A stretch of 64,000 nucleotides of DNA from Firmicutes bacterium CAG:822 (GCA_000432855.1 HF990868.1:84534-148533); one strand, 5' to 3'; positions 9,123 to 30,519 are shown, counted from the stretch's first letter. The notes: generated by a model from the sequence alone, not told the origin. Numbers and translations: made by a program.

Positions 9123-9166
9123 ATTCATCTTCTTTTCGTTTCACAAAATAATTTTATGTTATAGCA

Positions 9167-9693: not shown

Positions 9694-9826
9694 TTTTCTT
9701 TATAAGATTTAATAAAAATTAAAAAGTTTGTTTTTCCTTTATTTTTAAGCATTTTCGTTTACTTTTTTTTAAAAGATTTAATGTGAATTTTTTTAAAATT
9801 AAGGAAAAAGTGATAAAAAAGTGATA

Positions 9827-10390
9827 TTATGCTAGAGCTGGTTTATTATGTAAAGCACCAATTTTTTTTACAAAACCAGTTTCTTGCTCTTTTTCTTTTT
9901 CGCCAAATTGTTCGTTTAAAGCTAAAACACTACTTTTATATCTATTGTATGCAAAATCATAGTCGCCATTTTCGATAGCTTTAACACAAGCTTCTACAAT
10001 ATGGCTATATATATAATTATATATTTGTTCATTGTCATCTAATGCATCGATATTTTTGACTATTATAGGTGCAACATTATAATATAGTTCAATGTCCTCT
10101 TTTGAAACAAAATTATCTCTAAACCATCTTAAAACAGTTAATTCATAGCAGTTATCATCAAATTCATCCTGAAAATGTTTCATACAAGCAGATGTTAAAT
10201 AACATTGACCACTGGTTGATTCTTTTTTGCCATCAACTTTAGTAACAATTTCAACTTTTTTACCCTCACTAACTTTTATGTGTGCAGTATCATGTGGAAC
10301 AGCACGGCTACTAGGACTATATACATCAATTTTTGCTCCTTTTCCATTACTATATGGTGTTACTTTAATTTCTTTATCATTATCTGACAT
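9827..10390 (-). CDS. hypothetical protein with Cys-rich CYxTSxC..ELTVLRWFRDNF motif
   Basis: 187-aa ORF; shares an LR(R/W)FRDN-containing Cys motif with the C-terminus of 29410..30519. Confidence 0.5.
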   Translation of the reverse strand: MSDNDKEIKVTPYSNGKGAKIDVYSPSSRAVPHDTAHIKVSEGKKVEIVTKVDGKKESTSGQCYLTSACMKHFQDEFDDNCYELTVLRWFRDNFVSKEDIELYYNVAPIIVKNIDALDDNEQIYNYIYSHIVEACVKAIENGDYDFAYNRYKSSVLALNEQFGEKEKEQETGFVKKIGALHNKPALA

Positions 10391-10823
10391 TTTTCTCTTC
10401 TCCTCTCATATTAATTAATTTTTTTCTTAACTGCATTATTTCAGACAACCATATAACGGCTTCATCAGAAAGCTCATCTTCATTGCCTGTATCAACCTCA
10501 AAAATATACTTTTCCTTTAGCTTATCTAATTTATTATAGATATCTAATAATTCGTTAGGCATAATAAAATCTAAATTTCTAATAGTTTGAAATTTCGTCC
10601 CCCACTCAACTATCTTATCTAGTATTTGTTTAATTTCTTTATGGTCGTTTTGATAAGTTTTTAAGTTTGCCATCATAGACAATGGGCCGATTAATCTTGT
10701 GAATGCAACATATAATTTACTTTCTACTTCATATAAGTTTCTCTGCAAATTATTATCATTATTTTCCAATGTTAACCTCCAATCCTTTAAAGAAAAAAAT
10801 AAAATAATAATTCTTATATTCAA
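10380..10823 (-). CDS. hypothetical protein (true start probably internal, MMANLK..)
   Basis: The low-complexity N-terminal 50 aa look non-coding; the downstream part is coding-like. Confidence 0.35.
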   Translation of the reverse strand: MNIRIIILFFSLKDWRLTLENNDNNLQRNLYEVESKLYVAFTRLIGPLSMMANLKTYQNDHKEIKQILDKIVEWGTKFQTIRNLDFIMPNELLDIYNKLDKLKEKYIFEVDTGNEDELSDEAVIWLSEIMQLRKKLINMRGEEKNVR

Positions 10824-10877
10824 TTATAAATAATATTATTACTTTTTATTATAGGCAGCAATATTTTTATTCTTTCT

Positions 10878-11186
10878 TCAGTTATTTTTAACTTTATCTC
10901 TTTCTTTTCTTTTGTTCCTATTTTCCTCTCTCAATTTTTCGACATACTTAATATGATTTTTCTTTTTTAATTCAAAACATATAGGATCAAATAAATTAAT
11001 TAAATCAAATAAATCATCATATTTTTGATCTAAATAATTTAAATCATTATCCATTTTATCAAGAAAGTCATTAGTAATATTGTCATCACTTAATATACTA
11101 TTAATTCGCTTGATTAATTCTTGAATTAAAGTAAAATCATTATCATATTGATTGTCGCTTTCTAGACTTTTTAAAATGTCTAGCAT
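10878..11186 (-). CDS. small acidic protein with basic tail (paralog 2)
   Basis: 102 aa, paralog of 9167..9493. Confidence 0.55.
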   Translation of the reverse strand: MLDILKSLESDNQYDNDFTLIQELIKRINSILSDDNITNDFLDKMDNDLNYLDQKYDDLFDLINLFDPICFELKKKNHIKYVEKLREENRNKRKERDKVKNN

Positions 11187-11370
11187 TTTGTTTAAACTTT
11201 CTTCTATAATGTCTATCTCCCCCTTATAAATTTATAAACATATTAACACTTTTCTTATAATTTATCAATACTTTATAAAATAAAACGACCATGTAACGTA
11301 TCCGAATGTCATTTTTAGGGAATATTAATTGTTATAATGATGAAAACTATAAATGACTGGCGGTGAATAT

Positions 11371-11589
11371 ATGAAATTTCGGCTAAATGATTATGAAACA
11401 AAAGATGTAATGCGAATTTTAAGGGAATGGACTGAATTAGATCGAAAAGAATTTGGAAAATCAATTAGCCGAAGTGCCAAAAGTATAAAAAGTTATGAAA
11501 ATGGCGAACGAAATTACACCGTTCAGTTACTAAAAGATATTATTAAAAAGTATAATATCACAGTAGTTTTTGAAAAGAATAAAAAATAA
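11371..11589 (+). CDS. small HTH (XRE-like) DNA-binding protein
   Basis: RBS GGCGGTGA 6 nt before ATG 11371. Helix-turn-helix-like segment LREWTELDRKEFGKSISRSAKSIKSYENGER. Confidence 0.45.
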   Translation: MKFRLNDYETKDVMRILREWTELDRKEFGKSISRSAKSIKSYENGERNYTVQLLKDIIKKYNITVVFEKNKK

Positions 11590-12030
11590 AAGAGTGTCTG
11601 CCAACACTCAAAAGTTATGGGACTGCAATACTGCTTACTACTAATTTATTTGTCCTGTAATTTTTTTTTGGAAAAATAGTCCACAACAGATAACTTCATA
11701 ATAACCCACATTATAACTTTGGTTATATCTTGTTCGCCAATTGTACTACTTATATTAAATTGAATAATATCTTTTATTTTTAATGGTGATTGTATAGTTC
11801 TATTGTTTGTTCCTAATACTTTATTAATTAAGTCGTTGGCTATATGGTCGCTTCATTTTCTAAATCGTAATATTGCATACTTTTTTCGCCTTTACAAAAA
11901 TATTCATAGCTAAAAAATTCTTGGGTGCTATTAATATTTTCTTCATCTAAATCAAGTATATCTTTAATATTTGATTTTTTAATTTCAATAAGATAATTAT
12001 TAATTAATTTTTCTTATAGTATCATTAACA

Positions 12031-12057
12031 AAAATAAAAACCCTTATAAAATAAGGG
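12031..12057 (-). terminator. rho-independent terminator of tRNA-Ala
   Basis: On the minus strand, hairpin ccctta-ttt-taaggg followed by a U-rich tract (rc of aaaataaaaa) immediately 3' of the tRNA. Confidence 0.65.
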
Positions 12058-12071
12058 CTAAACTACTAAAT

Positions 12072-12148
12072 TGGTGGAGAATAGGAGACTCGAACTCCTG
12101 ACCCCCTGCGTGCAAAGCAGGTGCTCTAGCCAACTGAGCTAATTCCCC
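12072..12148 (-). tRNA. tRNA-Ala (anticodon UGC)
   Basis: The reverse complement reads GGGGAAUUAGCUCAGUUGG...CCUGCUUUGCACGCAGG...GGUCAGGAGUUCGAGUCUCCUAUUCUCCACCA. It has a G3:U70 pair, anticodon loop UUUGCAC, a T-loop GTTCGAG and an encoded CCA. Confidence 0.9.
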
Positions 12149-17423: not shown

Positions 17424-17451
17424 TCATATTTATAATTTTTCCTCATATATT
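17424..17451 (+). promoter_or_regulatory. putative sigma-E-type promoter upstream of spoIVA (TCATATT -13 nt- CATATATT)
   Basis: Matches the B. subtilis sigma-E consensus kmATATT-(~14)-CATACAmT; ~24 nt upstream of the ATG at 17475. Confidence 0.35.
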
Positions 17452-17474
17452 TAAATGAAGAAAGTAGGGATAAT

Positions 17475-18761
17475 ATGGAAAAAATAGACATTATCAAAAA
17501 TATCACCGAACGAACAGGTGGAGATATTTATTTAGGAGTAGTAGGAGCCGTAAGAACTGGTAAATCAACCTTTATTAAAAGGTTTATCGAAAATCTCGTT
17601 GTTCCTAATATTGAAGATGAATATGAAAGAAAAAGAACCTTAGATGAAATTCCCCAATCAGCGCAAGGTAAAACTATCATGACTACTGAGCCCAAATTTG
17701 TTCCAAGCAATGCCGCTAAAATAAAAATTGATGATTTTACCGCTGATGTAAGATTAGTTGATTGTGTTGGATACATTATCGAAGGGGCCAAAGGTTATGA
17801 AGATGAAAATGGTCCTAGAATGGTTCACACCCCATGGTATGAAGAGTCAATACCATTTGTCGAAGCAGCTGAAATAGGCACTGAAAAAGTTATTAAAGAT
17901 CATTCGAGTATTGGGGTTTTGGTCACGACTGATGGCTCTATTGGTGAATTTGAAAGAAGTGACTATGTCGAAGCCGAACAAAGAATAGCTAAAGAACTAA
18001 AAGAAATAGGTAAACCATTTATTGTCATTGTCAATTCAACACATCCAATGTTGCCAGAAACTGAAAATTTAGCTGAAAAATTAAAAGAAGAATATGGTGC
18101 TCCTGTTATACCAATGAATATTGACAACATGAGTGAACGAGATGCTTATAATATTTTAAGAGAAGCACTATATGAATTTCCAGTCGTATGTATCGATGTT
18201 GAAATGGCCGATTGGGTCGCATGTTTAGAGCCAAATAACTGGTTAAAAAAATCATATATTGATGCCATTAGAAATAGTATTCATGAAATAGATAAACTTA
18301 GAGATATTGAACAAATAACCGGCAAATTAGAGGAATGCGAATATATTGAAAAGGCCTATCTATCAGAAGTGGATACCGCAACCGGTAATGTTAGGGTAAC
18401 CTTAAAAACACCAGCCAATCTTTACAACGAAGTATTAAAAGATATAATTGGTGTAGACATTACTAGTCGTTCCCAATTACTTAGTCTATTTCAAGATTTA
18501 GGCGAAGCCAAAAGAGAATACGACCAAGTAAAAGACGCTTTAAAGATGGTTAAGCAAACTGGTTATGGTGTTGCTTCACCAACCTTAAATGATATGACAC
18601 TAGACACTCCAGAAATAATCAAACAAGGAAGTCGTTATGGTATTAAATTGAAAGCCGTTGCTCCTTCAATTCACATAAGGAATATAATTCTGATGTTACT
18701 GTATTTGAAAGATGTCTTAATGCAAAAAGTAAGAAAAAATATGATTTCATTTACAATATAG
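17475..18761 (+). CDS. spoIVA: stage IV sporulation protein A, 5' segment (residues 1-400, then 28 element-encoded codons to a stop)
   Basis: MEKIDIIKNITERTGGDIYLGVVGAVRTGKSTFIKRF (Walker A), ..LKAVAPSIH collinear with SpoIVA. Homology ends at codon 400 (18674) and the tail IRNIILMLLY.. is unrelated. Confidence 0.85.
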   Translation: MEKIDIIKNITERTGGDIYLGVVGAVRTGKSTFIKRFIENLVVPNIEDEYERKRTLDEIPQSAQGKTIMTTEPKFVPSNAAKIKIDDFTADVRLVDCVGYIIEGAKGYEDENGPRMVHTPWYEESIPFVEAAEIGTEKVIKDHSSIGVLVTTDGSIGEFERSDYVEAEQRIAKELKEIGKPFIVIVNSTHPMLPETENLAEKLKEEYGAPVIPMNIDNMSERDAYNILREALYEFPVVCIDVEMADWVACLEPNNWLKKSYIDAIRNSIHEIDKLRDIEQITGKLEECEYIEKAYLSEVDTATGNVRVTLKTPANLYNEVLKDIIGVDITSRSQLLSLFQDLGEAKREYDQVKDALKMVKQTGYGVASPTLNDMTLDTPEIIKQGSRYGIKLKAVAPSIHIRNIILMLLYLKDVLMQKVRKNMISFTI

Positions 18762-18827
18762 AGAGTTATATAAGTATATAGAATATGTGCTGAAAAGCAT
18801 ATTTTTTATTTAATGGAAGTGAGAAAA

Positions 18828-19694
18828 ATGTCTAAAAAGAAAATGGGTATAGGAACAATAGATATTAATAAAAAATTTAAAGATCAAGAAGAAGCTAGTA
18901 GATATGCTAAAAGATTAAGAGAATATATTCGTTATATCTGTAAAAAGTATAATTATCAAGCAAGTGTTATGACAGTTATTAGTAATACAAAAAGTGATGT
19001 TACTTCATTAAGATATGTTCACAATGGGAAAAGAGGTAGACCTCGGAAACAATTAGTAGTTATGAATACTTATATGGCGAATGTTTGGTATAAAGGAAAT
19101 TTTAATACAGATTGGCATATTCATATTTTAATAGTAAGTAAACCTAGTTATGCACTTAGAAATCATATAAAAAAGTATGTTGATAAAAATTGGATTAATA
19201 TAGCTAATATTCGCGAAAAGAAAGAATTTGATATTAGTATGTTAAATAAAAAGAAAGTCTATAAAAAGACTTGTAATATTAAAATAGCTGATTATTTTAT
19301 TAATCAAAGTGCGGAAATAAGGTTTATGTCTTGTAATTATAGTGATGAAGATGATTTCAAATATAGTCTTAAAGATTATTATAAAGAATATATGAAGTTT
19401 CATTATAATTACATTAAACTTCATAGAAAAAATAAATCTTTGGGAATAACTATGAGCGAAGAAGAATTTATAAAAAGATATGCTAAGATAGAAAGTAAAT
19501 TTAAAATGATTGAAGATTATTTTTATAATATAACAAAAGAAGATGAAGAAAAAGCGAGAAAAGATTTTTTAAAGGAAATTAAAATATCAAAAATTATGGA
19601 AAATTATAATAAAATGCAGAATGTTAAATGTTTTAGAGCAGCTGATGGTAGTTTATTTATAATAAGAAGGAATGAAGAAGAAAGTATATTTTAA
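18828..19694 (+). CDS. hypothetical protein with possible HUH motif (WHIHILIV)
   Basis: RBS GGAAGTGAG before ATG 18828; an HxH-hydrophobic motif and downstream Tyr/Lys motifs suggest, weakly, a Rep/relaxase-like HUH protein. Confidence 0.4.
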   Translation: MSKKKMGIGTIDINKKFKDQEEASRYAKRLREYIRYICKKYNYQASVMTVISNTKSDVTSLRYVHNGKRGRPRKQLVVMNTYMANVWYKGNFNTDWHIHILIVSKPSYALRNHIKKYVDKNWINIANIREKKEFDISMLNKKKVYKKTCNIKIADYFINQSAEIRFMSCNYSDEDDFKYSLKDYYKEYMKFHYNYIKLHRKNKSLGITMSEEEFIKRYAKIESKFKMIEDYFYNITKEDEEKARKDFLKEIKISKIMENYNKMQNVKCFRAADGSLFIIRRNEEESIF

Positions 19695-19761
19695 CTGTCA
19701 TATAATAGATATGTATATAATCAGTATATAAATAATACAGAGATAAAACGAAAACAAATAT

Positions 19762-19790
19762 AAAAATCTCATGTTTAAATGAGATAAAAT
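19762..19790. terminator. bidirectional hairpin terminator (ATCTCAT-gtttaa-ATGAGAT) between convergent genes
   Basis: Perfect 7-bp stem flanked by A/T runs on both sides. Confidence 0.5.
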
Positions 19791-19883
19791 AGTATAAATT
19801 ATTTAATATTTGTTCTATATATTTATTTTGATTATGTTGAAAATAAAAGCTTTATTTAATAAAATTTAAGAAATGAGTATAGA

Positions 19884-20219
19884 TTATTTATCATTAAGTC
19901 CATCAATATAACTATTTATTTTAGCTTTATCAATAGTTGAAAGATTTCTATATTTATCTAGTAATTGTAATTCATCTTGTGGTAAAGAACTTGAAAAAGC
20001 GTTATTAATAGAATAATCTATATCAGTTCTCTCTAATAGATAATCAGTAGTAGTATTTAAGTAATCAGCAATTTTAATTAATGTATCAGCACTAGGTTTA
20101 GCTTTATTATTAAGATAAGCACTAATAGTTTCTTGAGTAACTCCAATTTGAACTGATAAATTTATTTGAGTAATGTTTTTCTTAGTCATAAGAGCTTTTA
20201 AATTTTTCATACATAACAC
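19884..20219 (-). CDS. XRE-family HTH transcriptional regulator
   Basis: ITQINLSVQIGVTQETISAYLNNKAKPSADTLIKIADYL is a typical cI/Cro-type HTH; divergent from the next operon. Confidence 0.75.
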   Translation of the reverse strand: MLCMKNLKALMTKKNITQINLSVQIGVTQETISAYLNNKAKPSADTLIKIADYLNTTTDYLLERTDIDYSINNAFSSSLPQDELQLLDKYRNLSTIDKAKINSYIDGLNDK

Positions 20220-20346
20220 CTCTATATCATTATAAATTTTATAAATTGTATTTTTAGATATTGTATTTATAATATATATAGATATAACTTGTATTTTGTA
20301 GAAATATAGTATATAATAAATTTATATTAGAAAGAGGTTGTTTGTA

Positions 20347-20940
20347 GTGGGAGAAAAAAAATTATGCAAATATTGTAAATCAGAAATTGATAAAAAAGCT
20401 AAAATATGTCCTTTTTGTAAACGAGGTCAAGGCAATGTTGTTCTTAGATTACTATTTGTATTTATTATTATAACTTTTGTTATCACAGTTCTTGCAAGTT
20501 TAGGAGATAGTTCAAATAGTACATCTAATGAAAAGAAAACAGTAAATATGGGAGAAAAAGTTACAGTTAATGATGTTGATTATATAGTTAATGAAAAGAA
20601 AATACAAAAAGAAATAAGTGTAGCTAGTGGTTATTTTAAATATACAGCTGATGGTAATTATTTGTTAATAAATATTACAATTACTAATAATAGTAAAAGT
20701 TCAATAAATATTGACTCAACAGATTTTAGATTAAAAGATGAAAACGGAGCTACATATTCAGCAAGTATATTAACAAGTGTTGATAATATGGATATGCTTA
20801 ATTTTGAAACAATAAATCCAAATGCAACTGAAAGTGGTTATATAGCTTATGATATAGCAAATACTGATTTACATTATACATTAACAATTGATGGCGATGA
20901 GTTTTTTGATTCAGCTGGAATAGAAGTTTCTATTCAGTAA
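20347..20940 (+). CDS. zinc-ribbon / single-TM protein with DUF4352-like extracellular domain
   Basis: GTG 20347 sits 9 nt after AGAGG. CKYC..CPFC zinc ribbon, then a TM helix, then a beta-rich domain (..YIAYDI..) resembling DUF4352. Confidence 0.5.
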   Translation: MGEKKLCKYCKSEIDKKAKICPFCKRGQGNVVLRLLFVFIIITFVITVLASLGDSSNSTSNEKKTVNMGEKVTVNDVDYIVNEKKIQKEISVASGYFKYTADGNYLLINITITNNSKSSINIDSTDFRLKDENGATYSASILTSVDNMDMLNFETINPNATESGYIAYDIANTDLHYTLTIDGDEFFDSAGIEVSIQ

Positions 20941-21183
20941 GGTTTAAGTCTAATAGTAATATTAGGCTTTTATTTTTGATTTAATAATGTATTTTTAAGC
21001 AATAAGAGATTATCATATATTTTATTGAATTATTATATTTGACTTGTTATAAAGCGATTATGTTAAGAAATATAATATAATTTGAACAAATAGATTAAAA
21101 AGTCGGGACAAAGAATAGTTGAAGATATATAATATTTAAAAAATCATTGTTTTTTAGTGTATAATAGGTTTTGGTGATGTTAT

Positions 21184-23169
21184 ATGGAACAAAAGTACAT
21201 GGATGAAGATGAAGTAATAAGTCTTATAGACAATTATGTAAAAAACGTTAAAATAGATTATGCAATTCTTTTAGATGGTGCTTGGGGAAGCGGAAAAACT
21301 AAATTTATACAAGAAAAAGTAATAAAAAAGCTTAATGATGATTATAAAAAAGAAAAGTCAAAAACAAAAGATGATAAAGATGAAAACATTAAAGCAAAAA
21401 GACCTATATATATATCTTTATATGGTATAAACTCTATAGATGATATTAAGTCACAATTATTACAATCAATTATAAGAAGTGAAAAAATAAAAAAATATAT
21501 ACCAATAATTAACATTGGTGCTACTATAGTTGATGATATAGTAAAATCATGTTCAAATGTTTCTGACATAAGTAAAAAAATAGAAGATTTAGTTACATTT
21601 TTTTATAAATTAGATAATACAGTTATATTCTTTGATGATTTAGAAAGGTGTAATCTTAATATAAATTTAGTATTAGGATATATAAATCAATTAGTTGAGC
21701 ATAATCATTTAAAAGTTGTTTTAATTGCAGATGAAAACAAGATTGGAAAACTGAATTATGAAGATAATAAAGAATTAAAATATTTAACTGTTTTAAATGA
21801 ACACATTGATTTTCAGCAAACAGAAAAAAAAGATATAATGGGTAATCATCAACAAGGAAATACTACATTTACTATAGAAGATATAGAAAATCGTTCAAAG
21901 ATGTTATTTAGAGAAAATATATTTTATAATGAGATAAAAGAAAAATTAATTGGTCAAACAATATATTTTAAGCCAAATATAAACAATATATATGATATTA
22001 TGGCAAATGAAATAATTTCAGATGCAAAAGTTAAAGATATAGTTAATGAAAAGAAAGAACTTTTAATTAGTATGCTATCAAAAAAAGAACATTTGAATTT
22101 GAGAACTTTACAATTTATTTTTCAAACATTTGAAACATTAGTTAAAATTTCAATGGAGGAAGTAGATTTACGAGATTTTAAAGATCAATATTTAACAAAT
22201 TTATTTGAATATTGTATATTAAAATCAATACAGATTAAAAATGGGCAAACATCATATAATTGGAAAGAAAATCAAGAATTTGGAACAATATATTTAGGCG
22301 ATGAAAAAAATGAATATAATTATAATAATTATGTAAATGGATTCAAATTTGTTGATGATTATTTAATGTATTCTTATATAGATAAAGCAGCAATTAAAAC
22401 AACGCTTGAAAATTATATTTATGTTAAAACATTAGAAATTGAAAACCCTAATGATCCATTATATAAGCTAAAAAAATACTGGTTAATTCCAGAACAAGAG
22501 TTAGAAAATATAGTTGATGAAATTATAGATAATATTAGTAAAAATAAATATGTTCTAAATTTATATTCTAAAATTGTATTTTATTTTGCTTGTATTTTTG
22601 ATATGGGAATATGTGAAGATAAAATCAATAATGCTATAAAATTATTAGAAAAGAACATAGAAGAAGAGTGTGTTCAGGGTACATTTGAAGAAGAAAGATT
22701 ACATACAAATTCAAAAAGTGTTTCTCAGAAATATAAAGAATTTATGAAAAAAATAAGAACATTAGTAAATAAGAAAGAAACAAAAACTAAACATGATGAA
22801 ATAATAAAAATTTTAGAAAGCAATAATTGGGGAAGTGAGTTAAAAGAATATTGTAAAACAAATGTTGGACAATTTCTTGAAGACAAAAAATACGCATATT
22901 TGTTAAATATTGAATTAATTATTAATAATATTAAAAATAAAAATATAGAACAAATATATGAATTCTTATATTCGTTACAACAAATATATGGTTTTTCTAG
23001 TGTAAAGGATTATTTTATAGAAGACAAAAATATTTTAATTAATTTAAAACAAGAGTTATCTAATATAGATAATATTGACAAAGTAAAAAGATATGTAATT
23101 AATGATATTATTTCTTTATTAGATGATGTCATTAATATTTTAAATTCTAAAAACGAAAAAGCAAATTAA
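21184..23169 (+). CDS. KAP-family P-loop NTPase
   Basis: AILLDGAWGSGKT is the diagnostic KAP Walker A (G-x-WG-x-GKT); 661 aa, long helical C-terminal region. Confidence 0.7.
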   Translation: MEQKYMDEDEVISLIDNYVKNVKIDYAILLDGAWGSGKTKFIQEKVIKKLNDDYKKEKSKTKDDKDENIKAKRPIYISLYGINSIDDIKSQLLQSIIRSEKIKKYIPIINIGATIVDDIVKSCSNVSDISKKIEDLVTFFYKLDNTVIFFDDLERCNLNINLVLGYINQLVEHNHLKVVLIADENKIGKLNYEDNKELKYLTVLNEHIDFQQTEKKDIMGNHQQGNTTFTIEDIENRSKMLFRENIFYNEIKEKLIGQTIYFKPNINNIYDIMANEIISDAKVKDIVNEKKELLISMLSKKEHLNLRTLQFIFQTFETLVKISMEEVDLRDFKDQYLTNLFEYCILKSIQIKNGQTSYNWKENQEFGTIYLGDEKNEYNYNNYVNGFKFVDDYLMYSYIDKAAIKTTLENYIYVKTLEIENPNDPLYKLKKYWLIPEQELENIVDEIIDNISKNKYVLNLYSKIVFYFACIFDMGICEDKINNAIKLLEKNIEEECVQGTFEEERLHTNSKSVSQKYKEFMKKIRTLVNKKETKTKHDEIIKILESNNWGSELKEYCKTNVGQFLEDKKYAYLLNIELIINNIKNKNIEQIYEFLYSLQQIYGFSSVKDYFIEDKNILINLKQELSNIDNIDKVKRYVINDIISLLDDVINILNSKNEKAN

Positions 23170-23364
23170 TTATATTTAGCGTTTAAAAAAGTACACATTT
23201 TCAAAGATTTAAAATAGTAGTTATTTTAAGTCTTTTTTTGTTTGTAAAAGTATGTTTTATAATTTTTAAATATTTAAAAAGTTTTTGGACTTTTTCAAAG
23301 TATCGGGAGTGACAATATTAAAATTTGTTTATAAAATTAAAGTAAAGTGGAAAGGAGTTTTAAA

Positions 23365-23595
23365 GTGAACAAATCAATATTAATTAAAATAGTAAAATGG
23401 ATTTGTGATGGTTATGTTGATGCTTTAATCACAGGAATAGAAGAAAATGAAAATTATTTTCCTTATACTATCGCAGTTATTCATTTTATAGATGAACTTC
23501 AAAGAAAAAACATTAAAATTGATTATAAAGAAATATTTAATGACTCTATAATTGATAATGTTTTAAAAGAAGCAAATGATTATTTAATGAGGTGA
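23365..23595 (+). CDS. small hypothetical protein
   Basis: AAGGAG RBS 8 nt before GTG 23365; its stop is 4 nt before the invertase gene. Confidence 0.4.
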   Translation: MNKSILIKIVKWICDGYVDALITGIEENENYFPYTIAVIHFIDELQRKNIKIDYKEIFNDSIIDNVLKEANDYLMR

Positions 23596-23599
23596 TATT

Positions 23600-24196
23600 T
23601 TGAAAAATAAAGTATTTGGTTATGCTAGAGTTAGCAGTAAAGAACAAAACGAAGAAAGACAATTATCAGCATTTCAAAAATTTGGTATTGATGAAAGAGA
23701 TATTTATGTTGATAAACAAAGCGGTAAAGATTTTAATAGAAAAGAATATCTTACACTTAAAAATATATTAAGAGAAAATGATTTATTAGTTATTAAAAGC
23801 ATTGATAGATTAGGAAGAAATTACGATATGATAGTTAATGAGTGGAAAGATATTACTAAGAATATTAAAGCAGATATTGTTGTTATTGATATGCCTTTAT
23901 TAGATACTAGAAAAAATAAAGATTTATTAGGAACATTTATTAGCGATATTGTATTACAAATATTATCGTATGTCGCAGAACAAGAAAGAACATTTATTAA
24001 GCAAAGACAAAAAGAAGGTATTTTAGTAGCTAAGAACAATGGAGTTAAATTTGGTAGACCAAAAATAGAAAAACCACAAAATTTTGATATTGTGGTTAAT
24101 AAATGGAAAAATAAAGAAATCAAAAGTAAAGATGCTATGAAGCTATTAGGACTTAAAGCAAATACATTTTATAATATGGTTAAAGATATTAGTTAA
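23600..24196 (+). CDS. small serine recombinase (resolvase/DNA-invertase type)
   Basis: VFGYARVSSKEQNEERQ (catalytic Ser), a resolvase N-terminal domain and a C-terminal HTH; 198 aa. Confidence 0.8.
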   Translation: MKNKVFGYARVSSKEQNEERQLSAFQKFGIDERDIYVDKQSGKDFNRKEYLTLKNILRENDLLVIKSIDRLGRNYDMIVNEWKDITKNIKADIVVIDMPLLDTRKNKDLLGTFISDIVLQILSYVAEQERTFIKQRQKEGILVAKNNGVKFGRPKIEKPQNFDIVVNKWKNKEIKSKDAMKLLGLKANTFYNMVKDIS

Positions 24197-25079
24197 TCGG
24201 ATAGTTATTTTCATAATTATTAATAAAGTCTTTTAATATACTTATATCATTAGTCTTTAGATATTGTTTCATAGCTTCTTTATATCGTTTCTTATAATTA
24301 TCAATATATTCTAAAGAAACATATTTGTTATTATTAAGACGATGTAAAAAATTAGTATGTTTTTTATTCAACTGTAAATATTGATAAGTCTTTTTTAAAA
24401 TCATTGACTTTTTGGCACAAGTAATATCTTTATCATTAAATTTAGTAATTCGTTTACAATATTTAGAATCAGTTTCAGTGGTTAAATAATATCTATCACA
24501 TATATCACATTTTTTAAGACAGTATTTTCGTTTAGAAGTAAATACACAATGTAAAAAACTAATTAGCATATCTGATATTTCATATTTACTTTTATTAGTA
24601 AATATAGTTTTTTCAGAAATTAGATTAAAATTACTATCTGATAATTGTTCTTCTAATAGTGATTTTCTTTCACTAATAGGAAATAACATTTTAGGGTTTT
24701 TAGTATTTTTTATAATAACATTATTATCATAATCAGTCTTATTTATTGTTGTATTTGTGTTTCTTCCATTATTTTGAACTGAAAAATCATAACTAGTAAG
24801 TTTGTCAAAATTAGTATATAAAAATCTTTCAGAAATAGGAGAAATTTGAGTTTTAGATGATACTAAAAAAGTAAACCAAGTTGAATTATCTATATAATCA
24901 TAATTAGTACTTTCAAATAGTCTTTCTAAAAACATTTTAGAATATTCATCTTTCATAATGCAAAAATCAAAAATTTCGTGAAAATCTAGTTTTATAAGTT
25001 TATTATCTGATTTAATTGCGATTTCTTTTGTATTTAGATTTTCATAAAATGTCATTATTTTATAATGCTCATTGCTCAT
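24189..25079 (-). CDS. hypothetical protein with C-terminal Cys cluster (CLKKCDICDRYY...C..C)
   Basis: 296-aa ORF convergent with and 8 nt overlapping the invertase gene; no recognised domain. Confidence 0.45.
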   Translation of the reverse strand: MSNEHYKIMTFYENLNTKEIAIKSDNKLIKLDFHEIFDFCIMKDEYSKMFLERLFESTNYDYIDNSTWFTFLVSSKTQISPISERFLYTNFDKLTSYDFSVQNNGRNTNTTINKTDYDNNVIIKNTKNPKMLFPISERKSLLEEQLSDSNFNLISEKTIFTNKSKYEISDMLISFLHCVFTSKRKYCLKKCDICDRYYLTTETDSKYCKRITKFNDKDITCAKKSMILKKTYQYLQLNKKHTNFLHRLNNNKYVSLEYIDNYKKRYKEAMKQYLKTNDISILKDFINNYENNYPIN

Positions 25080-25273
25080 ATAATATCATCTCATTTCTTT
25101 ATTATATATATAGAAAATGTTTTTGCAAAAACTTCTTCAATATAAAGATTACTATATATTATATTTGTTATATAATCAAATTGTCAATTAATTAAATGAA
25201 AATTATTGTCAATTGCTTAAGATAATATATAATACATAATTTTCATAAAATGGACTAGAAAGGAAGATTATAT

Positions 25274-25552
25274 ATGACATTTATGAGTGAATATGATGAC
25301 AATAACAATTTAATTAAAGAGTCTTTGATAGATAAATATGGTAATGAAGAAGTATCATATTTAAACGAAGATTTAGATAAAGAGTTAAATGGTATACAGT
25401 TGTTTAAAGATTTAGGCACATTTTATAAATTACAATTAACTATCAATAAACAAATGTATGAAAGCGGTGATATATCTAAAGAACTTTATAATAAAGTTGA
25501 AGATATAATACTAGATAGAATAAAACCATTTCAAAAATATATTAATAATTAA
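25274..25552 (+). CDS. small hypothetical protein upstream of large serine recombinase
   Basis: 92 aa, acidic; AGGAGG-containing junction to the recombinase gene 13 nt downstream. Confidence 0.45.
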   Translation: MTFMSEYDDNNNLIKESLIDKYGNEEVSYLNEDLDKELNGIQLFKDLGTFYKLQLTINKQMYESGDISKELYNKVEDIILDRIKPFQKYINN

Positions 25553-25565
25553 AGGAGGTGTCATA

Positions 25566-27197
25566 ATGGAACTATATCGTATAAGAGAAGAATTAAAAAC
25601 AAAGAGTATAACAGATATTCCTTTAAGAGTAACCTTTTATGCTAGAGTATCTACTGATAAATATGAACAACTAAATTCATTAGAAAATCAAGTTTCTTAT
25701 TTTAAAGATTTAATAAAGCAAAATAAGAACTGGACTTATGTTGATGGATATGTAGATGAAGGTATTAGTGGTACATCAACAAACAAAAGAGAAAGTTTCT
25801 TAAAAATGATAGAAGATGGTAAAGAAAAAAAATTTGATTTAATCTTAACAAAAGAAGTTTCAAGATTTGCTAGAGATACATTAGATAGTATTGCAAATAC
25901 TAGATTATTGTTAAAATATGATGTTGGAGTACAATTCATAAATGACGGAATTAATACATTAATGCCTGACTCAGAACTAAGATTAACTATTATGTCTTCA
26001 CTAGCACAAGATGAAGTCAGAAAATTATCAGAGAGAGTTAAATTTGGTTATCAAAGGTCAATAAAAAGTGGCAGAGTATTAGGAAATGATGATATTTGGG
26101 GTTATGATAAAAAAGATGGAAAACTTACTATTAATGAAGAAGAAGCAAAAATGATTAGAAGAATATTTGAACTATATACAACAGGAAAATATGGTTTGAA
26201 TACAGTATCAAAAATTATCTATAAAGAGGGATTTAAAAACAAAAATGGTAATAAATTATCAATGACAACAATTAGTTATATCATTAGAAATCCAAAATAT
26301 AAAGGTTATTACTGTGGAAATAAGTCAACAATAGTTGATTATAAACTTAAAAAGAAAATTAAGAAAGATCAAGAAGATTGGGTAATGTATGAAGACCATG
26401 AAACAGTACCTCCAATCATAAGTGAAGAACAATGGGAATTAGCACAGACTATTTATAATAAAAGAAGTGCAAAATGTAGTGATGTAGATAAAAGAATATA
26501 TCAAAATAGATATACTTTTAGTGGAAAAATCAAATGTAATTGTCATGATAAAAGTTTTCATAGAAAAGTATATAGATATAAAACAAAAGATGACGCAGTT
26601 GTTTGGTTATGTCCATATAATAATGGAACAAAAGTAGAAAAATGTGATACTCCTGTACTTTATGAAACTGAATTAATGCAAATACTTAGACAACAAATAA
26701 AAGATTTCATTAATCGTAAAGAAAGTATTATTTATTCATTAACTCAGTTATATAAAGAGAATATTAACTTAAGAGATTATGATAAAGAAATCAATAAGAA
26801 ATTAAGTGATATAGAAGTAATTAAAAGACAAAAAGATAAGTTGTTATCACATAATATGAATGATATTATTTCTGATAAAGAGTTTATGATTAGAAATAAT
26901 GAATGTAATGATAAAATTAAAATATTAGAAAATGAAATTGAAAACATTAGAACAGAAAAAAGAAAATCAGATAATATGGAAGAAGAAGTCTTAAAATTAG
27001 AGCAATTAATAGAAGATAAGATAAATTTTCCATCAGATGATATGATAATTGATTTATTAGATAAAATTGTAGTTTATAGCAGTGATGAAACTCATAATGT
27101 AAAACTAAGAATATATCTAAAAATCGGCGAAGAAATTATCGCTGATTATAAAAATCATAAATCACATCAGTTTAATGTTGTCAAGGCATATGATTAG
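25566..27197 (+). CDS. large serine recombinase (resolvase domain + recombinase domain + zinc ribbon + coiled coil); the 3' end crosses the right junction into spoIVA
   Basis: YARVSTDKYEQ catalytic Ser; FARDTLDSIANTRLL; zinc ribbon CNCH...C..C; 543 aa. The last codons and the TAG stop (27195-97) lie in host spoIVA DNA beyond the AT crossover. Confidence 0.9.
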   Translation: MELYRIREELKTKSITDIPLRVTFYARVSTDKYEQLNSLENQVSYFKDLIKQNKNWTYVDGYVDEGISGTSTNKRESFLKMIEDGKEKKFDLILTKEVSRFARDTLDSIANTRLLLKYDVGVQFINDGINTLMPDSELRLTIMSSLAQDEVRKLSERVKFGYQRSIKSGRVLGNDDIWGYDKKDGKLTINEEEAKMIRRIFELYTTGKYGLNTVSKIIYKEGFKNKNGNKLSMTTISYIIRNPKYKGYYCGNKSTIVDYKLKKKIKKDQEDWVMYEDHETVPPIISEEQWELAQTIYNKRSAKCSDVDKRIYQNRYTFSGKIKCNCHDKSFHRKVYRYKTKDDAVVWLCPYNNGTKVEKCDTPVLYETELMQILRQQIKDFINRKESIIYSLTQLYKENINLRDYDKEINKKLSDIEVIKRQKDKLLSHNMNDIISDKEFMIRNNECNDKIKILENEIENIRTEKRKSDNMEEEVLKLEQLIEDKINFPSDDMIIDLLDKIVVYSSDETHNVKLRIYLKIGEEIIADYKNHKSHQFNVVKAYD

Positions 27198-27465
27198 AGT
27201 TGATGTTGAAAGCACCTTTGAACCAATTATAGGTTCGGAAATTCAAAGTAAAGAACTTATTAATTATTTAATGAAGGACAAAGAATCTGGAAGTCAAAAT
27301 ATTTGGAAAAGTGAAATCTTTGGCCGTAGCTTAGACGTTATAGTTCAAGAAGGTATTCAAGCAAAACTATCACTAATGCCAGAAAGTGTTCGCTTTAAAT
27401 TAAAACAAACACTTTCAAAACTAGTAAATAAAGGTTCTGGGAACTTATTCGCCATTGTCATTTAA
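27190..27465 (+). CDS. spoIVA: stage IV sporulation protein A, 3' segment (residues 401-491)
   Basis: MIRVDVESTFEPIIGSEIQSKELINYLMKD..FGRSLDVIVQEGIQAKLSLMPESVRFKLKQTL..GSGNLFAIVI matches the conserved SpoIVA C-terminus. It is in frame with the 5' segment once 18677-27189 is removed. Confidence 0.85.
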   Translation: MIRVDVESTFEPIIGSEIQSKELINYLMKDKESGSQNIWKSEIFGRSLDVIVQEGIQAKLSLMPESVRFKLKQTLSKLVNKGSGNLFAIVI

Positions 27466-29409: not shown

Positions 29410-30519
29410 ATGGCCAAAACCGCCTTAGAAGCATTACAATGTCCTAAATGTGGTTGAGCAGTTGAACTTGATAGTAATCAAGAATATGGGGTTTGTAAAT
29501 ATTGTGGAGCAAAAGTACAGAACACAAATTTTAAGAAAATTAAAGGAGAAGTAAAAATAATAGGAAATCCAACTGTAGAAAACTTTATAAAATTAGCAAA
29601 AAGAGACTATGATGACGAAAACTATAATGAAACATTAGAAAAATATAATAAAGTTTTAGACATTGAACCAGATAATTGGGAAGCTGTTTATAAAAGAGGA
29701 ATATGTATTACAAAAACAACCACTCTTGGCGCATTTAGAATGGACGATATTGTTAAAGGCTCAAAAAATGCATTAAAGATTATTGAGGAAAACAAAGAAC
29801 TAAAAGTAAATATAAATCAAATAAAATTAGATATGGCATATGATATATTAATGTCTTGCTATGAAATGTTTAGATTTGCATTAAATCATTATAACGAATT
29901 TTGGGAATTGGAAAATTCTGCATCTGAAATGTGGAATAGGGAAGCAGCAGTATTAAATGCGGCTGAATATGCTGCAACACTTATAGAAGGTATACCAGAC
30001 GATAAAATAAAGACTACAATATCTGGAGAAACAAAAAAAGATGTATTATTATCTGCATACGATGCAATAATTCTTTGCTGCGTTACAATTTGTCAAACAA
30101 GAAGTTATAAAGATTTAAATAGTTATCCTAAAACTTGGATAAAAGATGAATATAGAAATAATTATGTTCAGATTTATGATAAATATTCAGCAAAGATAAA
30201 AGAAATTGATCCTAATAAAGAAATCAAGAAAATTCAAAGAACAGGTAATCAGGGATGTTATATAGCTACCTGTGTGTATGGCTCATATGATTGTCCAGAA
30301 GTATGGACCTTAAGAAGATTCAGAGATAATGATTTAGCAAAGAAATGGTATGGAAAATTATTTATTCATATTTATTATTCCATTAGTCCTACGATTGTTA
30401 AATTATTTGGTAAAAGCAAATGGTTTAAAAGCATATTTAAACCTTCATTAGATAAACTTGTAAAAAGATTAAAAGAACAAGGATATGAGTCATCACCATA
30501 TGATGATCAAACATGGTAA
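29410..30519 (+). pseudogene. zinc-ribbon + TPR-like protein with conserved Cys-containing C-terminal module, interrupted by in-frame TGA at 29455-29457
   Basis: Strong RBS GAAGGAGAG before ATG 29410. MAKTALEALQCPKCG-TGA-AVELD..CKYCG continues in frame into ORF 29740..30519; C-terminal GCYIATCVYGSYDCPEVWTLRRFRDN. Confidence 0.55.

What the first reader, a model, noticed from the sequence alone, without database searches (positions are those of the whole stretch)
17424..27465. spoIVA is split by an 8.5-kb skin-like intervening element with a large serine recombinase at the junction
ORF 17475..18761 matches SpoIVA residues 1-400 (Walker A GAVRTGKST ... LKAVAPSIH). It then diverges into 28 unrelated codons. 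ORF 27175..27465 matches the SpoIVA C-terminus from M401 (MIRVDVESTFEPIIG...GSGNLFAIVI). Removing 18677..27189 joins them in frame: ...tca att cac AT g att aga... gives ...SIHMIR..., for a 491-aa SpoIVA, the normal size. The inferred crossover is a shared AT dinucleotide (18675-76 and 27190-91). A 543-aa large serine recombinase gene (resolvase domain, zinc ribbon, coiled coil) sits at the right end and terminates 6 nt past the crossover inside spoIVA DNA. This is the architecture of developmentally excised elements (skin in sigK, SPbeta in spsM) that rebuild a mother-cell gene during sporulation. spoIVA (the basement-layer coat morphogenetic ATPase, normally sigma-E-transcribed) is not among the classically described interrupted genes. 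A sigma-E-like promoter precedes the 5' segment.
Basis: partly seen in the sequence, partly recalled or inferred. Interest (0 to 1): 0.92.

Follow-up and report, generated by a model that had tools for sequence, protein, structure and literature searches.

The report
Mobile element splitting spore-coat gene spoIVA
An 8.5-kb mobile DNA element carrying its own cut-and-paste enzyme sits inside spoIVA, a gene needed to build the spore coat; it belongs to a large, apparently undescribed family of such elements in gut and soil spore-formers that must be cut out to restore the gene.

Summary
ORF 17475-18761 covers the SpoIVA profile 1-402 and ORF 27175-27465 covers 399-492. Removing 8515 bp gives a 491-aa SpoIVA (TIGR02836, 711 bits). 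That exact protein is encoded by an uninterrupted gene on at least 49 public contigs. Eight empty-site strains match the window minus the element at about 99% identity (98.8-99.3) over 16-20 kb.

The element has no phage structural genes. It carries a large serine recombinase (LSR), a small SHOCT-like ORF just upstream, a second small serine recombinase, an HTH regulator and a candidate defence NTPase.

It is more likely the CA of the His400 codon (18672-73 / 27187-88). That choice reproduces the natural attB exactly and is the dyad centre of attP in all 7 related elements.

Related LSRs split spoIVA at the same codon in at least 19 other genomes, including Ruminiclostridium papyrosolvens C7 and Anaerovirgula multivorans SCA. 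Sister recombinases split sigK and spoVD. In one vertically inherited pair, both spoIVA halves show dN/dS of 0.02 or less.

Excision during sporulation is inferred, not shown. No paper in the searched library describes a split spoIVA. Verdict: new member of a known kind.

The parts
17424..17451 (+). Candidate sigma-E-type promoter of spoIVA (TCATATT-N13-CATATATT)
   Evidence: Pattern match found. The consensus comes from my own knowledge of B. subtilis sigma-E promoters. A similar ATA-N-CATATATT is upstream of spoIVA in L013 and L015. Function not tested.
17475..18674 (+). spoIVA 5' segment, codons 1-400 (ATPase domain plus most of the middle domain). As it stands the ORF runs on to 18761 through 28 element-derived codons.
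   Evidence: TIGR02836 profile 1-402, E 5.5e-176. Pfam SpoIVA_ATPase and SpoIVA_middle.
18650..18697 (+). attL. The proposed crossover dinucleotide is CA at 18672-18673. Base 18674 (C) and everything to its right are element DNA (the P' arm, with CTGATG at 18691-96).
   Evidence: Empty sites read TTCATATGATT, whereas attL reads TTCACATAAGG. The dyad-symmetry centre of the rebuilt attP is this CA (14/24 against 3-10/24 elsewhere).
18674..27188 (+). Intervening element, 8515 bp, 22% GC, no phage structural genes
   Evidence: It is 100% identical over 8515 bp in an independent metagenome contig, L001. It is absent from 8 same-species loci.
18813..19694 (+). ORF of 293 aa, no known family
   Evidence: No hit in Pfam, PHROGs, PADLOC or PDB sequences.
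19884..20219 (-). HTH_3 (Cro/CI-type) transcriptional regulator
   Evidence: Pfam HTH_3 E 4e-15. PHROG transcriptional regulator/repressor families.
20338..20940 (+). Zinc-ribbon / membrane / DUF4352 protein
   Evidence: Pfam DUF4352 E 6e-22. phrog_806.
21184..23169 (+). KAP-family P-loop NTPase, a candidate anti-phage defence gene (PDC-S49)
   Evidence: PADLOC PDC-S49 E 2.6e-52 over the full length. Pfam KAP_NTPase.
23600..24196 (+). Small serine recombinase (resolvase/invertase type), role unknown
   Evidence: Pfam Resolvase E 2.5e-25. phrog_125 DNA invertase E 1e-47.
24189..25079 (-). DUF6076-like protein
   Evidence: Pfam DUF6076 E 3.9e-5, just above the cutoff.
25158..25251 (.). Divergent promoter region. 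Minus strand: TTGACA-18-TATAAT (25187 to 25158). Plus strand: TTGTCA-16-TATAAT (25206-25233). A sigma-E-like TAATATA-N14-CATAAAAT overlaps at 25223-25251. The motif ATTGTCAATT occurs twice.
   Evidence: Consensus matches only. The total count of promoter-like sites in the region is no higher than in shuffles.
25274..25552 (+). Small SHOCT-like ORF (92 aa) 13 nt upstream of the LSR; candidate recombination directionality factor
   Evidence: Homologues lie on the same strand upstream of the LSR in 19 of 23 spoIVA-linked loci, against 1 of 22 sigK-linked and 1 of 8 spoVD-linked loci. Nine of 12 members give sub-threshold SHOCT_2 hits. Function is inferred.
25566..27197 (+). Large serine recombinase, 543 aa. 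Its last codons and stop codon lie across attR in spoIVA DNA.
   Evidence: Pfam Resolvase and Recombinase. Invariant YxRVST with Ser29 and C324/H327/C349/C360. AF2 model with a coiled coil at 367-487. Foldseek hits to full-length serine integrases at E about 1e-20.
27165..27212 (+). attR. The proposed crossover dinucleotide is CA at 27187-27188. The P arm carries CATCAG at 27165-70.
27190..27465 (+). spoIVA 3' segment, codons 401-491 plus the stop codon (end of the middle domain plus the C-terminal domain)
   Evidence: TIGR02836 profile 399-492, E 6.8e-34. Pfam SpoIVA_C.

Best explanation
The 8515-bp segment is a non-phage integrative element. Its large serine recombinase (LSR) inserted it site-specifically into the conserved ...APSIH|MIR... 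coding sequence of spoIVA, exchanging strands at the CA of the His400 codon.

While integrated, the chromosome encodes only a truncated SpoIVA: 400 residues plus a 28-residue junk tail, without the C-terminal domain. The same LSR, most likely helped by the small SHOCT-like protein encoded just upstream (a candidate directionality factor), recombines attL with attR. That releases an 8.5-kb circle and restores an intact spoIVA identical to the natural allele.

The most likely setting is the terminally differentiated mother cell early in sporulation, as for skin/sigK, SPbeta/spsM, phi3T/kamA and gin/gerE. The spore's own chromosome would then keep the element.

Shown here:
- the split and the exact in-frame repair
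- the existence of empty sites in the same species
- the LSR's identity
- the att-site architecture
- recurrence of the same junction in other genomes
- purifying selection on both gene halves

Inferred:
- that excision happens at all in this host
- that it is timed to sporulation and confined to the mother cell
- that the SHOCT-like ORF is the directionality factor
For: 1. The composite SpoIVA covers TIGR02836 1-492 at 711 bits. It is exactly the product of an intact gene on at least 49 contigs.

2. The window minus the element aligns end to end with eight empty-site loci in the same synteny, at 98.8-99.3% identity over 16-20 kb. With a CA crossover the predicted attB equals the natural attB of L084, L086 and L090 over 80 nt.

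3. The rebuilt attP has dyad symmetry centred on that CA in all 7 elements that have both junctions: 12-22 of 24 arm positions, against 3-10 at other centres. LSRs cleave at the central dinucleotide of a symmetric attP (PMC5595907).

4. LSR homologues at 45-69% identity abut SpoIVA C-fragments starting at the same codon in 19 genome loci (19 of 80 loci; 23 carry a SpoIVA fragment of some kind). Six of them also hold the N-fragment upstream. Element sizes run from about 3.1 to 9.4 kb, and there is a phage-like version in A. multivorans. The C-terminal tails of 98 of 120 LSR protein clusters carry the signature of reading into spoIVA.

5. L013 (R. papyrosolvens C7) and L015 carry the element at the same site and are collinear at 89.6% nt identity across element and flanks. 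dN/dS is 0.017 for spoIVA-N, 0.000 for spoIVA-C (dS 0.55) and 0.065 for the LSR. The split gene has therefore stayed functional since the insertion.

6. In an NJ tree the sister clades of this LSR abut broken sigK (22 loci) and broken spoVD (7-8 loci). Both are mother-cell genes.

7. A. multivorans SCA, the type strain, was described as spore-forming (title cited in PMC5244501). It carries an LSR abutting a SpoIVA C-fragment (L036).

8. In L023 and L029 the SHOCT-like ORF lies directly downstream of, and co-oriented with, the truncated spoIVA. In L023 it starts 24 nt after the stop codon and has its own RBS. This position would couple it to the spoIVA promoter.
Against: - No excision product was seen. 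The attP junction pattern is absent from IMG/VR and JGI metagenome contigs. The LSR variant expected from an excised circle is absent from the protein collection.
- All occupied copies in this species are identical. This species alone therefore says nothing about selection after insertion. Empty sites were found on more contigs than occupied sites (at least 49 against 16).
- The best promoter match upstream of the SHOCT-like ORF and LSR is sigma-A-like (11/12). That fits vegetative or repressor-controlled expression as well as sporulation control. Sigma-E/K-like motifs upstream of the small ORF are not consistently present across the family.
- The SHOCT-like ORF is missing from 2 spoIVA-linked loci that have enough upstream sequence (L007, L026).
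- A second intact spoIVA elsewhere in the genome cannot be excluded from a 64-kb window. Only the split copy is present in the window itself.
Confidence: 0.65

Rival explanations
1. This is an ordinary integrative mobile element that uses the conserved spoIVA sequence merely as a landing site. It knocks out sporulation in its hosts and excises only for horizontal transfer, for example on derepression of its HTH-controlled sigma-A promoter. There is no developmental programme.
For: - There is a near-perfect sigma-A-like promoter with repeated operator-like ATTGTCAATT motifs upstream of the small ORF and LSR, and an HTH regulator in the element.
- The element is polymorphic within the species, and all occupied copies are identical, which suggests recent acquisition.
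- The cargo looks like a defence island.
- Some LSR relatives sit in non-sporulation genes such as an ABC-transporter binding protein, a patatin and FeoB.
Against: - Both spoIVA halves are under strong purifying selection in a lineage that inherited the element vertically.
- The same site is used across distant classes, and sister recombinases split sigK and spoVD.
- A described spore-former carries an LSR abutting a SpoIVA C-fragment.
- A site-specific knock-out of an indispensable sporulation gene would be strongly selected against in bacteria that depend on spores for transmission (inference).
Confidence: 0.2
2. The element is a reversible switch in growing cells (active lysogeny or phase variation). 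It excises and re-integrates in a subpopulation before sporulation, setting the fraction of cells able to sporulate rather than acting only in the mother cell.
For: - A sigma-A-like promoter is present.
- There are precedents: the yabG yin element was found excised at all time points and shifted sporulation timing (PMC10747680), and comK in Listeria (PMC7192596).
Against: There is no direct evidence either way. If the excised circle replicates poorly it would be lost from dividing cells, and the element has no recognisable replication gene. Vertical persistence in L013/L015 fits germ-line retention better.
Confidence: 0.1
3. The two spoIVA fragments work as separate polypeptides that assemble, so no DNA rearrangement is needed.
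For: Purifying selection on both halves would also be expected under this model. An in-frame ATG at 27175, or Met401 itself, could start the C-fragment.
Against: - The break lies inside the SpoIVA middle domain (Pfam 238-415).
- No conserved start codon or ribosome-binding site precedes the C-fragment across the family.
- The N-fragment carries a junk tail of variable length.
- An active-looking LSR with matched att sites sits at every junction.
Confidence: 0.03
4. The junctions are an assembly or binning artefact that joined unrelated DNA.
For: The window and most related loci come from metagenome assemblies.
Against: The same junctions are present on 16 contigs from several samples, the element and both spoIVA junctions are base-for-base identical in the four places examined (window, L001-L003), and in isolate genomes with related elements. 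Removing the element restores collinearity with empty-site strains to the base.
Confidence: 0.01

Closest known systems
gin element in gerE of Bacillus cereus ATCC 10987 (LSR GirC plus directionality factor GirX)
   Same: It is a non-phage intervening element inside a sporulation gene. It carries more than one serine recombinase and an HTH regulator, and its attP is symmetric about the cleavage dinucleotide. An LSR plus a small partner protein rejoin the gene (PMC5595907).
   Different: gin is 28.6 kb and sits in gerE, a late sigma-K-stage regulator in Bacillus. Here the element is 8.5 kb and sits in spoIVA, an early structural/morphogenetic gene, in an uncultured low-GC Bacilli host. Excision of gin was shown experimentally; none is shown here. 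The partner protein here is SHOCT-like. I did not compare it with GirX.
skin elements in sigK (B. subtilis SpoIVCA/Skr; C. difficile CD1231/CD1234)
   Same: The logic is the same: an LSR at one end of the element, a small directionality factor next to it, and in-frame repair of a mother-cell gene (PMC5025042, PMC6957869). LSRs 41-48% identical to the one in the window abut broken sigK in 22 genome loci.
   Different: skin is a defective prophage of 14.6-48 kb and its target is a sigma factor.
SPbeta in spsM and phi3T in kamA (B. subtilis)
   Same: Both have a modular attL-rdf-int-attR unit carried by different mobile elements. kamA, like spoIVA, is sigma-E-dependent and is rebuilt about 3 h into sporulation (PMC4191935, PMC6957869). 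The A. multivorans member of the present family sits at the end of a phage-like region with RNR, dUTPase, a UvsX-like recombinase and a sigma factor, which IMG/VR calls a 108-kb provirus.
   Different: Those are active 130-kb phages. The element in the window has no phage structural genes. The Foldseek match to the solved serine integrase-RDF complexes is at only 16% sequence identity.
yin element in yabG of Clostridium botulinum V73
   Same: An LSR-bearing intervening element in a conserved clostridial sporulation gene, with an RDF proposed by modelling only (PMC10747680).
   Different: yin is a unique prophage-like element in a single strain. The spoIVA elements form a large, widespread family.
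XisF fdxN element of Anabaena heterocysts
   Same: An LSR-mediated developmental deletion that restores a gene in a terminally differentiated cell. The LSR here scores E 2.9e-22 on the NCBIfam XisF model.
   Different: The score of 79 bits is far below the equivalog cutoff of 375, and the phylum and developmental programme are different.

Membership tests
Large serine recombinases (serine integrases) | N-terminal resolvase-type catalytic domain with a nucleophilic serine in a YxRVS(T/S) motif | tested here: met
   Pfam PF00239 E 1e-29. Y25, R27, V28, S29, T30 and Q35 are invariant in 50 homologues. PDB sequence hits to resolvase and TP901-1 catalytic domains.
Large serine recombinases (serine integrases) | Recombinase domain followed by a zinc-ribbon domain with an embedded coiled coil | tested here: met
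   PF07508 E 2.5e-19. PF13408 scores only 20.2 bits, below the 25.3 cutoff, but C324, H327, C349 and C360 are invariant. The AF2 model (pLDDT 78) has strands at 322-348 and long helices at 367-487. Foldseek aligns the full length to serine integrase complexes 9y66, 9dxd and 9dxh (E about 1e-20), PhiC31, Bxb1 and 4kis.
Large serine recombinases (serine integrases) | Short att sites; attP an imperfect inverted repeat around a 2-bp crossover | tested here: met
   The symmetry scan peaks at the CA dinucleotide in 7 of 7 elements. Identity between attL and attR is limited to a few bases around it.
Large serine recombinases (serine integrases) | Excision (attL x attR) requires a directionality factor | not testable with these tools
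   There is only a candidate: the SHOCT-like ORF at 25274-25552, which is syntenic with the LSR in 19 of 23 spoIVA-linked loci.
Sporulation-gene intervening elements (skin, SPbeta, vfbin, vrin, gin, phi3T, yin) | Inserted inside the coding sequence of a mother-cell-expressed sporulation gene | tested here: met
   The gene is spoIVA by the TIGR02836 equivalog model. spoIVA is used as a sigma-E target in C. difficile (PMC5025042). That it is mother-cell and sigma-E-dependent in B. subtilis is established knowledge.
Sporulation-gene intervening elements (skin, SPbeta, vfbin, vrin, gin, phi3T, yin) | Carries its own site-specific recombinase, and precise deletion restores an intact in-frame gene | tested here: met
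   The composite equals a natural allele, and attB equals the natural empty site.
Sporulation-gene intervening elements (skin, SPbeta, vfbin, vrin, gin, phi3T, yin) | The split gene remains functional in carriers (selection is maintained; carriers sporulate) | tested here: met
   L013/L015: dN/dS 0.017 (N half) and 0.000 (C half) with the element inherited collinearly. Partial support: A. multivorans SCA is described as spore-forming. Its N-fragment and a possible second copy were not checked.
Sporulation-gene intervening elements (skin, SPbeta, vfbin, vrin, gin, phi3T, yin) | Excision occurs during sporulation, in the mother cell, under sporulation sigma factors | not testable with these tools
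   Promoter motifs are ambiguous, with sigma-A-like and sigma-E-like matches overlapping. No excised junction was found in public contigs.
Defective prophage ('skin-like' in the strict sense) | Phage structural, packaging or lysis genes | tested here: not met
   PHROGs finds only regulator, invertase, integrase and unknown-function families in the window's element. Other family members do sit in phage-like DNA (L036).

The most novel reading that the evidence does not exclude
A large, previously unrecognised radiation of serine-integrase units, each comprising an att site, a small partner protein and an LSR, has specialised on early mother-cell (sigma-E regulon) genes. These are spoIVA at the His400 codon, spoVD and sigK, across Clostridia and Bacilli. 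The units ride on carriers ranging from about 3-kb minimal cassettes to roughly 100-kb prophages. In these hosts the first step of spore-coat and cortex assembly depends on a DNA rearrangement. The SHOCT-like protein would be a new family of recombination directionality factors, in some elements transcribed from the spoIVA promoter itself, so that the target gene triggers its own repair.
Probability: 0.45. Interest if true: 0.8.

Novelty: new member of a known kind. Interest (0 to 1): 0.66.

Why it matters
SpoIVA is the one coat-morphogenetic protein conserved in all endospore formers. It acts at the start of coat and cortex assembly. If it is routinely rebuilt by DNA excision in many gut and environmental Firmicutes, three things follow.

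1. Annotation pipelines and sporulation-gene censuses will wrongly score these organisms as lacking spoIVA or as non-sporulating.
2. The list of developmentally rearranged genes extends from late regulators and surface functions to an early structural gene. That puts a tight timing demand on excision.
3. The family offers a set of natural serine integrases that share one well-defined 2-bp core and a conserved target. It also offers a candidate new directionality factor, and natural examples in both orientations. This is useful material for integrase engineering.

Cultured carriers exist (R. papyrosolvens C7, A. multivorans SCA, Pseudoflavonifractor strains), so the prediction can be tested directly.

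Tried and rejected
- Searched for the excised circle. The attP junction pattern (with Y at the diagnostic base) found nothing in IMG/VR or in JGI metagenome contigs. Exact look-up of the two LSR variants expected from a circle found nothing. These collections hardly sample this host, so the negatives weigh little.
- Exact look-up of the composite SpoIVA proteins of L013, L015 and L054 found no intact alleles.
- The phage collection has no close LSR. The best hit (MT837325, 41.5%) is a chromosomal fragment labelled as phage, with no terminal repeat and no spoIVA.
- dN/dS on other LSR-related pairs (L017/L026, L006/L007, L006/L029, L009/L025) was uninformative. dS is saturated and the elements are not collinear.
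- Scans for sigma-E/K promoter motifs upstream of the small ORF gave scattered matches in AT-rich DNA and no conserved motif across the family. I treat these as inconclusive.
- A profile of the SHOCT-like ORF against PDB sequences gave only noise (LptE, E 0.02).
- Repeats inside the element show nothing beyond what AT-rich DNA gives by chance, and no clear invertible segment for the small recombinase.
- Supplementary tables of the TIGER 'regulated gene integrity' survey have no SpoIVA entry.

Full report
**1. The observation**

The window has two ORFs that are the two parts of one SpoIVA. ORF 17475-18761 (428 aa) matches the NCBIfam equivalog model TIGR02836 at profile positions 1-402 (E 5.5e-176). 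ORF 27175-27465 (96 aa) matches positions 399-492 (E 6.8e-34). Joining codons 1-400 to codons 401-491 gives a 491-aa protein. It matches the model end to end (1-492/492, 711 bits, cutoff 460) and has all three Pfam SpoIVA domains.

The 8515 bp in between have 22.0% GC, against 27-35% in the flanks. A tblastn of the composite finds only this split copy in the 64-kb window. The in-frame deletion is 8515 bp.

**2. Direct proof that the split is an insertion**

The predicted composite protein exists, residue for residue, as the product of one uninterrupted gene on at least 49 public contigs (P0241). Eight such loci (L084-L091) share the window's gene order: der, spoVIF, a 3-hydroxyacyl-CoA dehydrogenase, spoIVA, the HU gene (hbs) and the CCA-adding enzyme gene (cca).

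The window with the element removed aligns with them across the junction without a break. Against L084 the identity is 99.3% over 20 kb, with three small gaps. The occupied form, with an identical LSR, is on 16 contigs from several samples. In L001 the element is 100% identical over all 8515 bp. The insertion is therefore real, polymorphic within one species and recent in that species. Between occupied and empty alleles spoIVA differs at 5-13 codons, all of them synonymous.

**3. Where the strands cross**

All eight empty sites read ...CCTTCAATTCATATGATTAGAG.... The window's attL reads TTCACATAAGG and its attR reads GGCATATGATT. Two exchanges keep the frame. CA, the first two bases of the His400 codon (18672-73 / 27187-88), predicts exactly the natural attB.

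I rebuilt attP for the seven elements that have both junctions and scanned for dyad symmetry. In every one the peak lies on this CA: 14, 19, 22, 21, 15, 12 and 18 matching positions out of 24, against 3-10 at all other centres. For the window, attP is CATCAG-N16-CA-N16-CTGATG. LSR attP sites are symmetric about the central dinucleotide where cleavage occurs (PMC5595907). A non-palindromic core also explains why orientation is fixed. I therefore place the element at 18674-27188.

One relative (L019) sits in the opposite orientation, with the 3' end of its LSR next to attL. That is what a flipped core would produce.

**4. What the element carries**

- The LSR (25566-27197) has the resolvase and recombinase domains and invariant YxRVST with Ser29. 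It also has invariant C324/H327/C349/C360.
- An AlphaFold model (pLDDT 78) shows the catalytic domain, the recombinase domain, a zinc ribbon and a long coiled coil at 367-487.
- Foldseek aligns the model over its full length to solved serine-integrase complexes (9y66, 9dxd, 9dxh; E about 1e-20), PhiC31, Bxb1 and the Listeria integrase 4kis.
- The LSR's last codons cross attR and its stop codon is spoIVA DNA.

The other genes are:

| Coordinates | Product |
|---|---|
| 18813-19694 | 293-aa protein of no known family |
| 19884-20219 (minus) | Cro/CI-type HTH regulator |
| 20338-20940 | DUF4352 membrane protein |
| 21184-23169 | KAP P-loop NTPase, full-length match to PADLOC candidate defence system PDC-S49 (E 2.6e-52) |
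| 23600-24196 | small serine recombinase of invertase type |
| 24189-25079 (minus) | DUF6076-like protein |

There are no phage structural, packaging or lysis genes. The element is therefore 'skin-like' in logic only. In make-up it resembles the non-phage gin element of gerE.

**5. A candidate directionality factor**

The 92-aa ORF at 25274-25552 ends 13 nt before the LSR. A profile built from it finds a homologue on the same strand upstream of the LSR in 19 of 23 spoIVA-linked loci. It finds one in only 1 of 22 sigK-linked and 1 of 8 spoVD-linked loci. The conserved core (...L.IN..L.E.G.ITEEMY.KAKE.I...) gives sub-threshold SHOCT_2 hits in 9 of 12 members.

In L013 and L015 cargo has been inserted between this ORF and the LSR, yet the ORF is retained. 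In L023 and L029 it lies directly after the truncated spoIVA and in the same direction. In L023 it starts 24 nt after the stop codon and has its own ribosome-binding site. Transcription from the spoIVA promoter would then produce it. Co-variation of a small partner with an integrase clade is what a directionality factor would show, but its function is inferred.

**6. Regulation is unresolved**

Upstream of spoIVA there is a TCATATT-N13-CATATATT motif (17424-17451). It resembles the sigma-E consensus as I recall it. The intergenic region before the small ORF holds the two best sigma-A-type matches in the whole region: TTGACA-18-TATAAT on the minus strand and TTGTCA-16-TATAAT on the plus strand. 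Both -35 boxes lie within a repeated ATTGTCAATT. A sigma-E-like TAATATA-N14-CATAAAAT overlaps them. Sigma-E/K-like motifs are not consistently present across the family.

In SPbeta and the C. difficile skin the integrase is constitutive and only the directionality factor is sporulation-specific. Here the two genes look co-transcribed, so the promoter would have to be either sporulation-specific or repressed.

**7. The family**

A scan of one genome per species with an LSR alignment returned 80 loci.

- In 19 of them a SpoIVA C-fragment beginning at the same His|Met codon lies directly after the LSR. Six of these also hold the N-fragment upstream.
- Hosts include Ruminiclostridium papyrosolvens C7, Pseudoflavonifractor capillosus An827, P. 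intestinihominis, Anaerovirgula multivorans SCA, and many Oscillospiraceae, Clostridia and Bacilli MAGs.
- Element sizes are about 3.1 kb (L021), 6105, 6270, 6866, 8515 and 9398 bp.
- In A. multivorans the LSR sits at the end of a phage-like region with a methyltransferase, a UvsX-like recombinase, ribonucleotide reductase, dUTPase, thymidylate kinase and a sigma factor. IMG/VR calls this region a 108-kb provirus.
- The R. papyrosolvens element carries an agrBD-kinase module and a dockerin-bearing glycosidase.

The LSR proteins themselves show where they are integrated. In the Bacilli group the tail ...[YH]D-stop or ...YDKSRC is spoIVA MIRVDV read in another frame. In the Clostridia group the tail ...TSVCTRQY[IT]-stop is the attP arm followed by a TGA taken from spoIVA ATGAT. 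These signatures are present in 54 of 58 and 44 of 62 of the best protein clusters.

**8. Evidence that the split gene still works**

L013 (R. papyrosolvens C7) and L015 (a related MAG) are collinear at 89.6% nucleotide identity through the left flank, the element and the right flank. The insertion therefore predates their split. Over that divergence (dS 0.37-0.55) dN/dS is 0.017 for the 403-codon N half, 0.000 for the 94-codon C half and 0.065 for the LSR. A gene permanently destroyed by an insertion would not be conserved like this.

The A. multivorans type strain was described as spore-forming (title cited in PMC5244501), and the genus Ruminiclostridium is described as spore-forming (PMC10701907). 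I could not check strain-level phenotypes or look for second gene copies.

**9. Relatives with other targets**

LSRs 41-48% identical to this one abut other broken genes:

- SigK broken at profile positions about 63-69: 15 loci with the C-fragment after the LSR and 7 with the N-fragment reversed.
- SpoVD broken at about position 409: 7-8 loci.
- A D-Ala-D-Ala carboxypeptidase-like gene: 1 locus.
- Some non-sporulation genes.

In a neighbour-joining tree the Clostridia spoIVA clade is sister to the sigK clade. The Bacilli spoIVA clade, which includes the window, branches separately. The tree is a rough one.

**10. Comparison with what is known, and novelty**

The described interrupted sporulation genes in the papers I could search are sigK, spsM, spoVFB, spoVR, gerE, kamA and yabG. 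One of these papers writes spoIVFB in its list (PMC6957869). Seven full-text searches and a look through the supplements of the TIGER survey found no report of a split spoIVA. The library lacks many subscription papers, so this is not proof of absence.

The mechanism class is well known. The target, the size of the family, the candidate partner protein and the spoVD relatives appear to be new. I therefore file it as a new member of a known kind.

**11. What remains open**

- Excision in this host has not been observed. Searches for attP junctions and for the LSR variant of an excised circle were negative.
- Timing and cell specificity are inferred by analogy and from selection.
- The main rival is a plain mobile element that disables sporulation and excises only for transfer. 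I give it about 0.2.
- A vegetative on/off switch gets about 0.1. Function as two separate polypeptides gets about 0.03, because the break lies inside the middle domain and no conserved start precedes the C half.
- L011 and L023 have arrangements I could not explain.

Noticed in passing
L055, L059, L064, L065, L068, L069, L071, L079 (directly 3' of the LSR match): LSRs about 42-44% identical to the window's abut a SpoVD C-terminal fragment starting near TIGR02214 position 409. spoVD, the sporulation-specific PBP, therefore also seems to be split by elements of this recombinase clade. I found no report of this either.
   Followed up: partly
L012, L014, L016, L018, L020, L024, L032, L041, L043, L046, L049, L057, L066, L067, L072; and L027, L028, L030, L039, L047, L048, L083: Sister LSRs abut SigK fragments broken at profile positions about 63-69, in both orientations (C-fragment after the LSR, or N-fragment reversed). 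These are skin-type elements in Oscillospiraceae and other Clostridia.
   Followed up: partly
L174 1-2823 (IMGVR_UViG_3300006213_000516): A true phage (terminase, portal, prohead protease, major capsid) abuts a SpoIVA reading frame that runs to about residue 426 and then fuses to the terminase ORF. This is a second, different insertion point in spoIVA. The SpoIVA part also has a frameshift near position 650-700.
   Followed up: no
L036 1-10000 (Anaerovirgula multivorans SCA) and L095: Upstream of the spoIVA-linked LSR lies a phage-like nucleotide-metabolism module (DNA methyltransferase, UvsX-like recombinase, ribonucleotide reductase, dUTPase, thymidylate kinase, sigma factor). IMG/VR lists the region as a 108-kb provirus. 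The N-terminal spoIVA fragment is more than 10 kb away and was not seen.
   Followed up: partly
L013 5917-9878 (R. papyrosolvens C7 spoIVA element): The cargo is an agrB-agrD-histidine kinase quorum-sensing module and a dockerin-bearing glycoside hydrolase. The spoIVA elements therefore carry quite different cargo in different hosts.
   Followed up: no
window 25158-25233: Divergent, near-consensus sigma-A-type promoters (12/12 and 11/12) have their -35 boxes inside a twice-repeated ATTGTCAATT. This looks like an operator-controlled switch between the DUF6076 gene and the small-ORF/LSR operon.
   Followed up: partly
window about 8700-12070, left of the tRNA at 12075-12148 (minus strand): Same-species loci L084, L085 and L086 stop being collinear with the window just left of this tRNA gene and carry different genes there (DUF2441/ASCH versus a radical SAM protein, and so on). 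This is a strain-variable island next to a tRNA.
   Followed up: no
L011 7279-7640 and L023 11560-11760: In L011 a SpoIVA C-fragment lies on the opposite strand 2.4 kb upstream of the LSR, with an attP-like arm unlike the family's. In L023 attL and the small ORF are present but no SpoIVA C-fragment follows the LSR. These may be nested or tandem elements. Unexplained.
   Followed up: no
window 21184-23169: The KAP P-loop NTPase matches the PADLOC candidate defence family PDC-S49 over its full length (E 2.6e-52). The spoIVA element doubles as a small defence island.
   Followed up: no
window 29740-30519: A 259-aa protein with a CFI-box-CTERM domain (NF041770, E 1.9e-22). In some same-species strains the gene called at this position is 369 aa with weak zinc-ribbon/TPR hits (L084, L086), so this locus varies between strains.
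   Followed up: no
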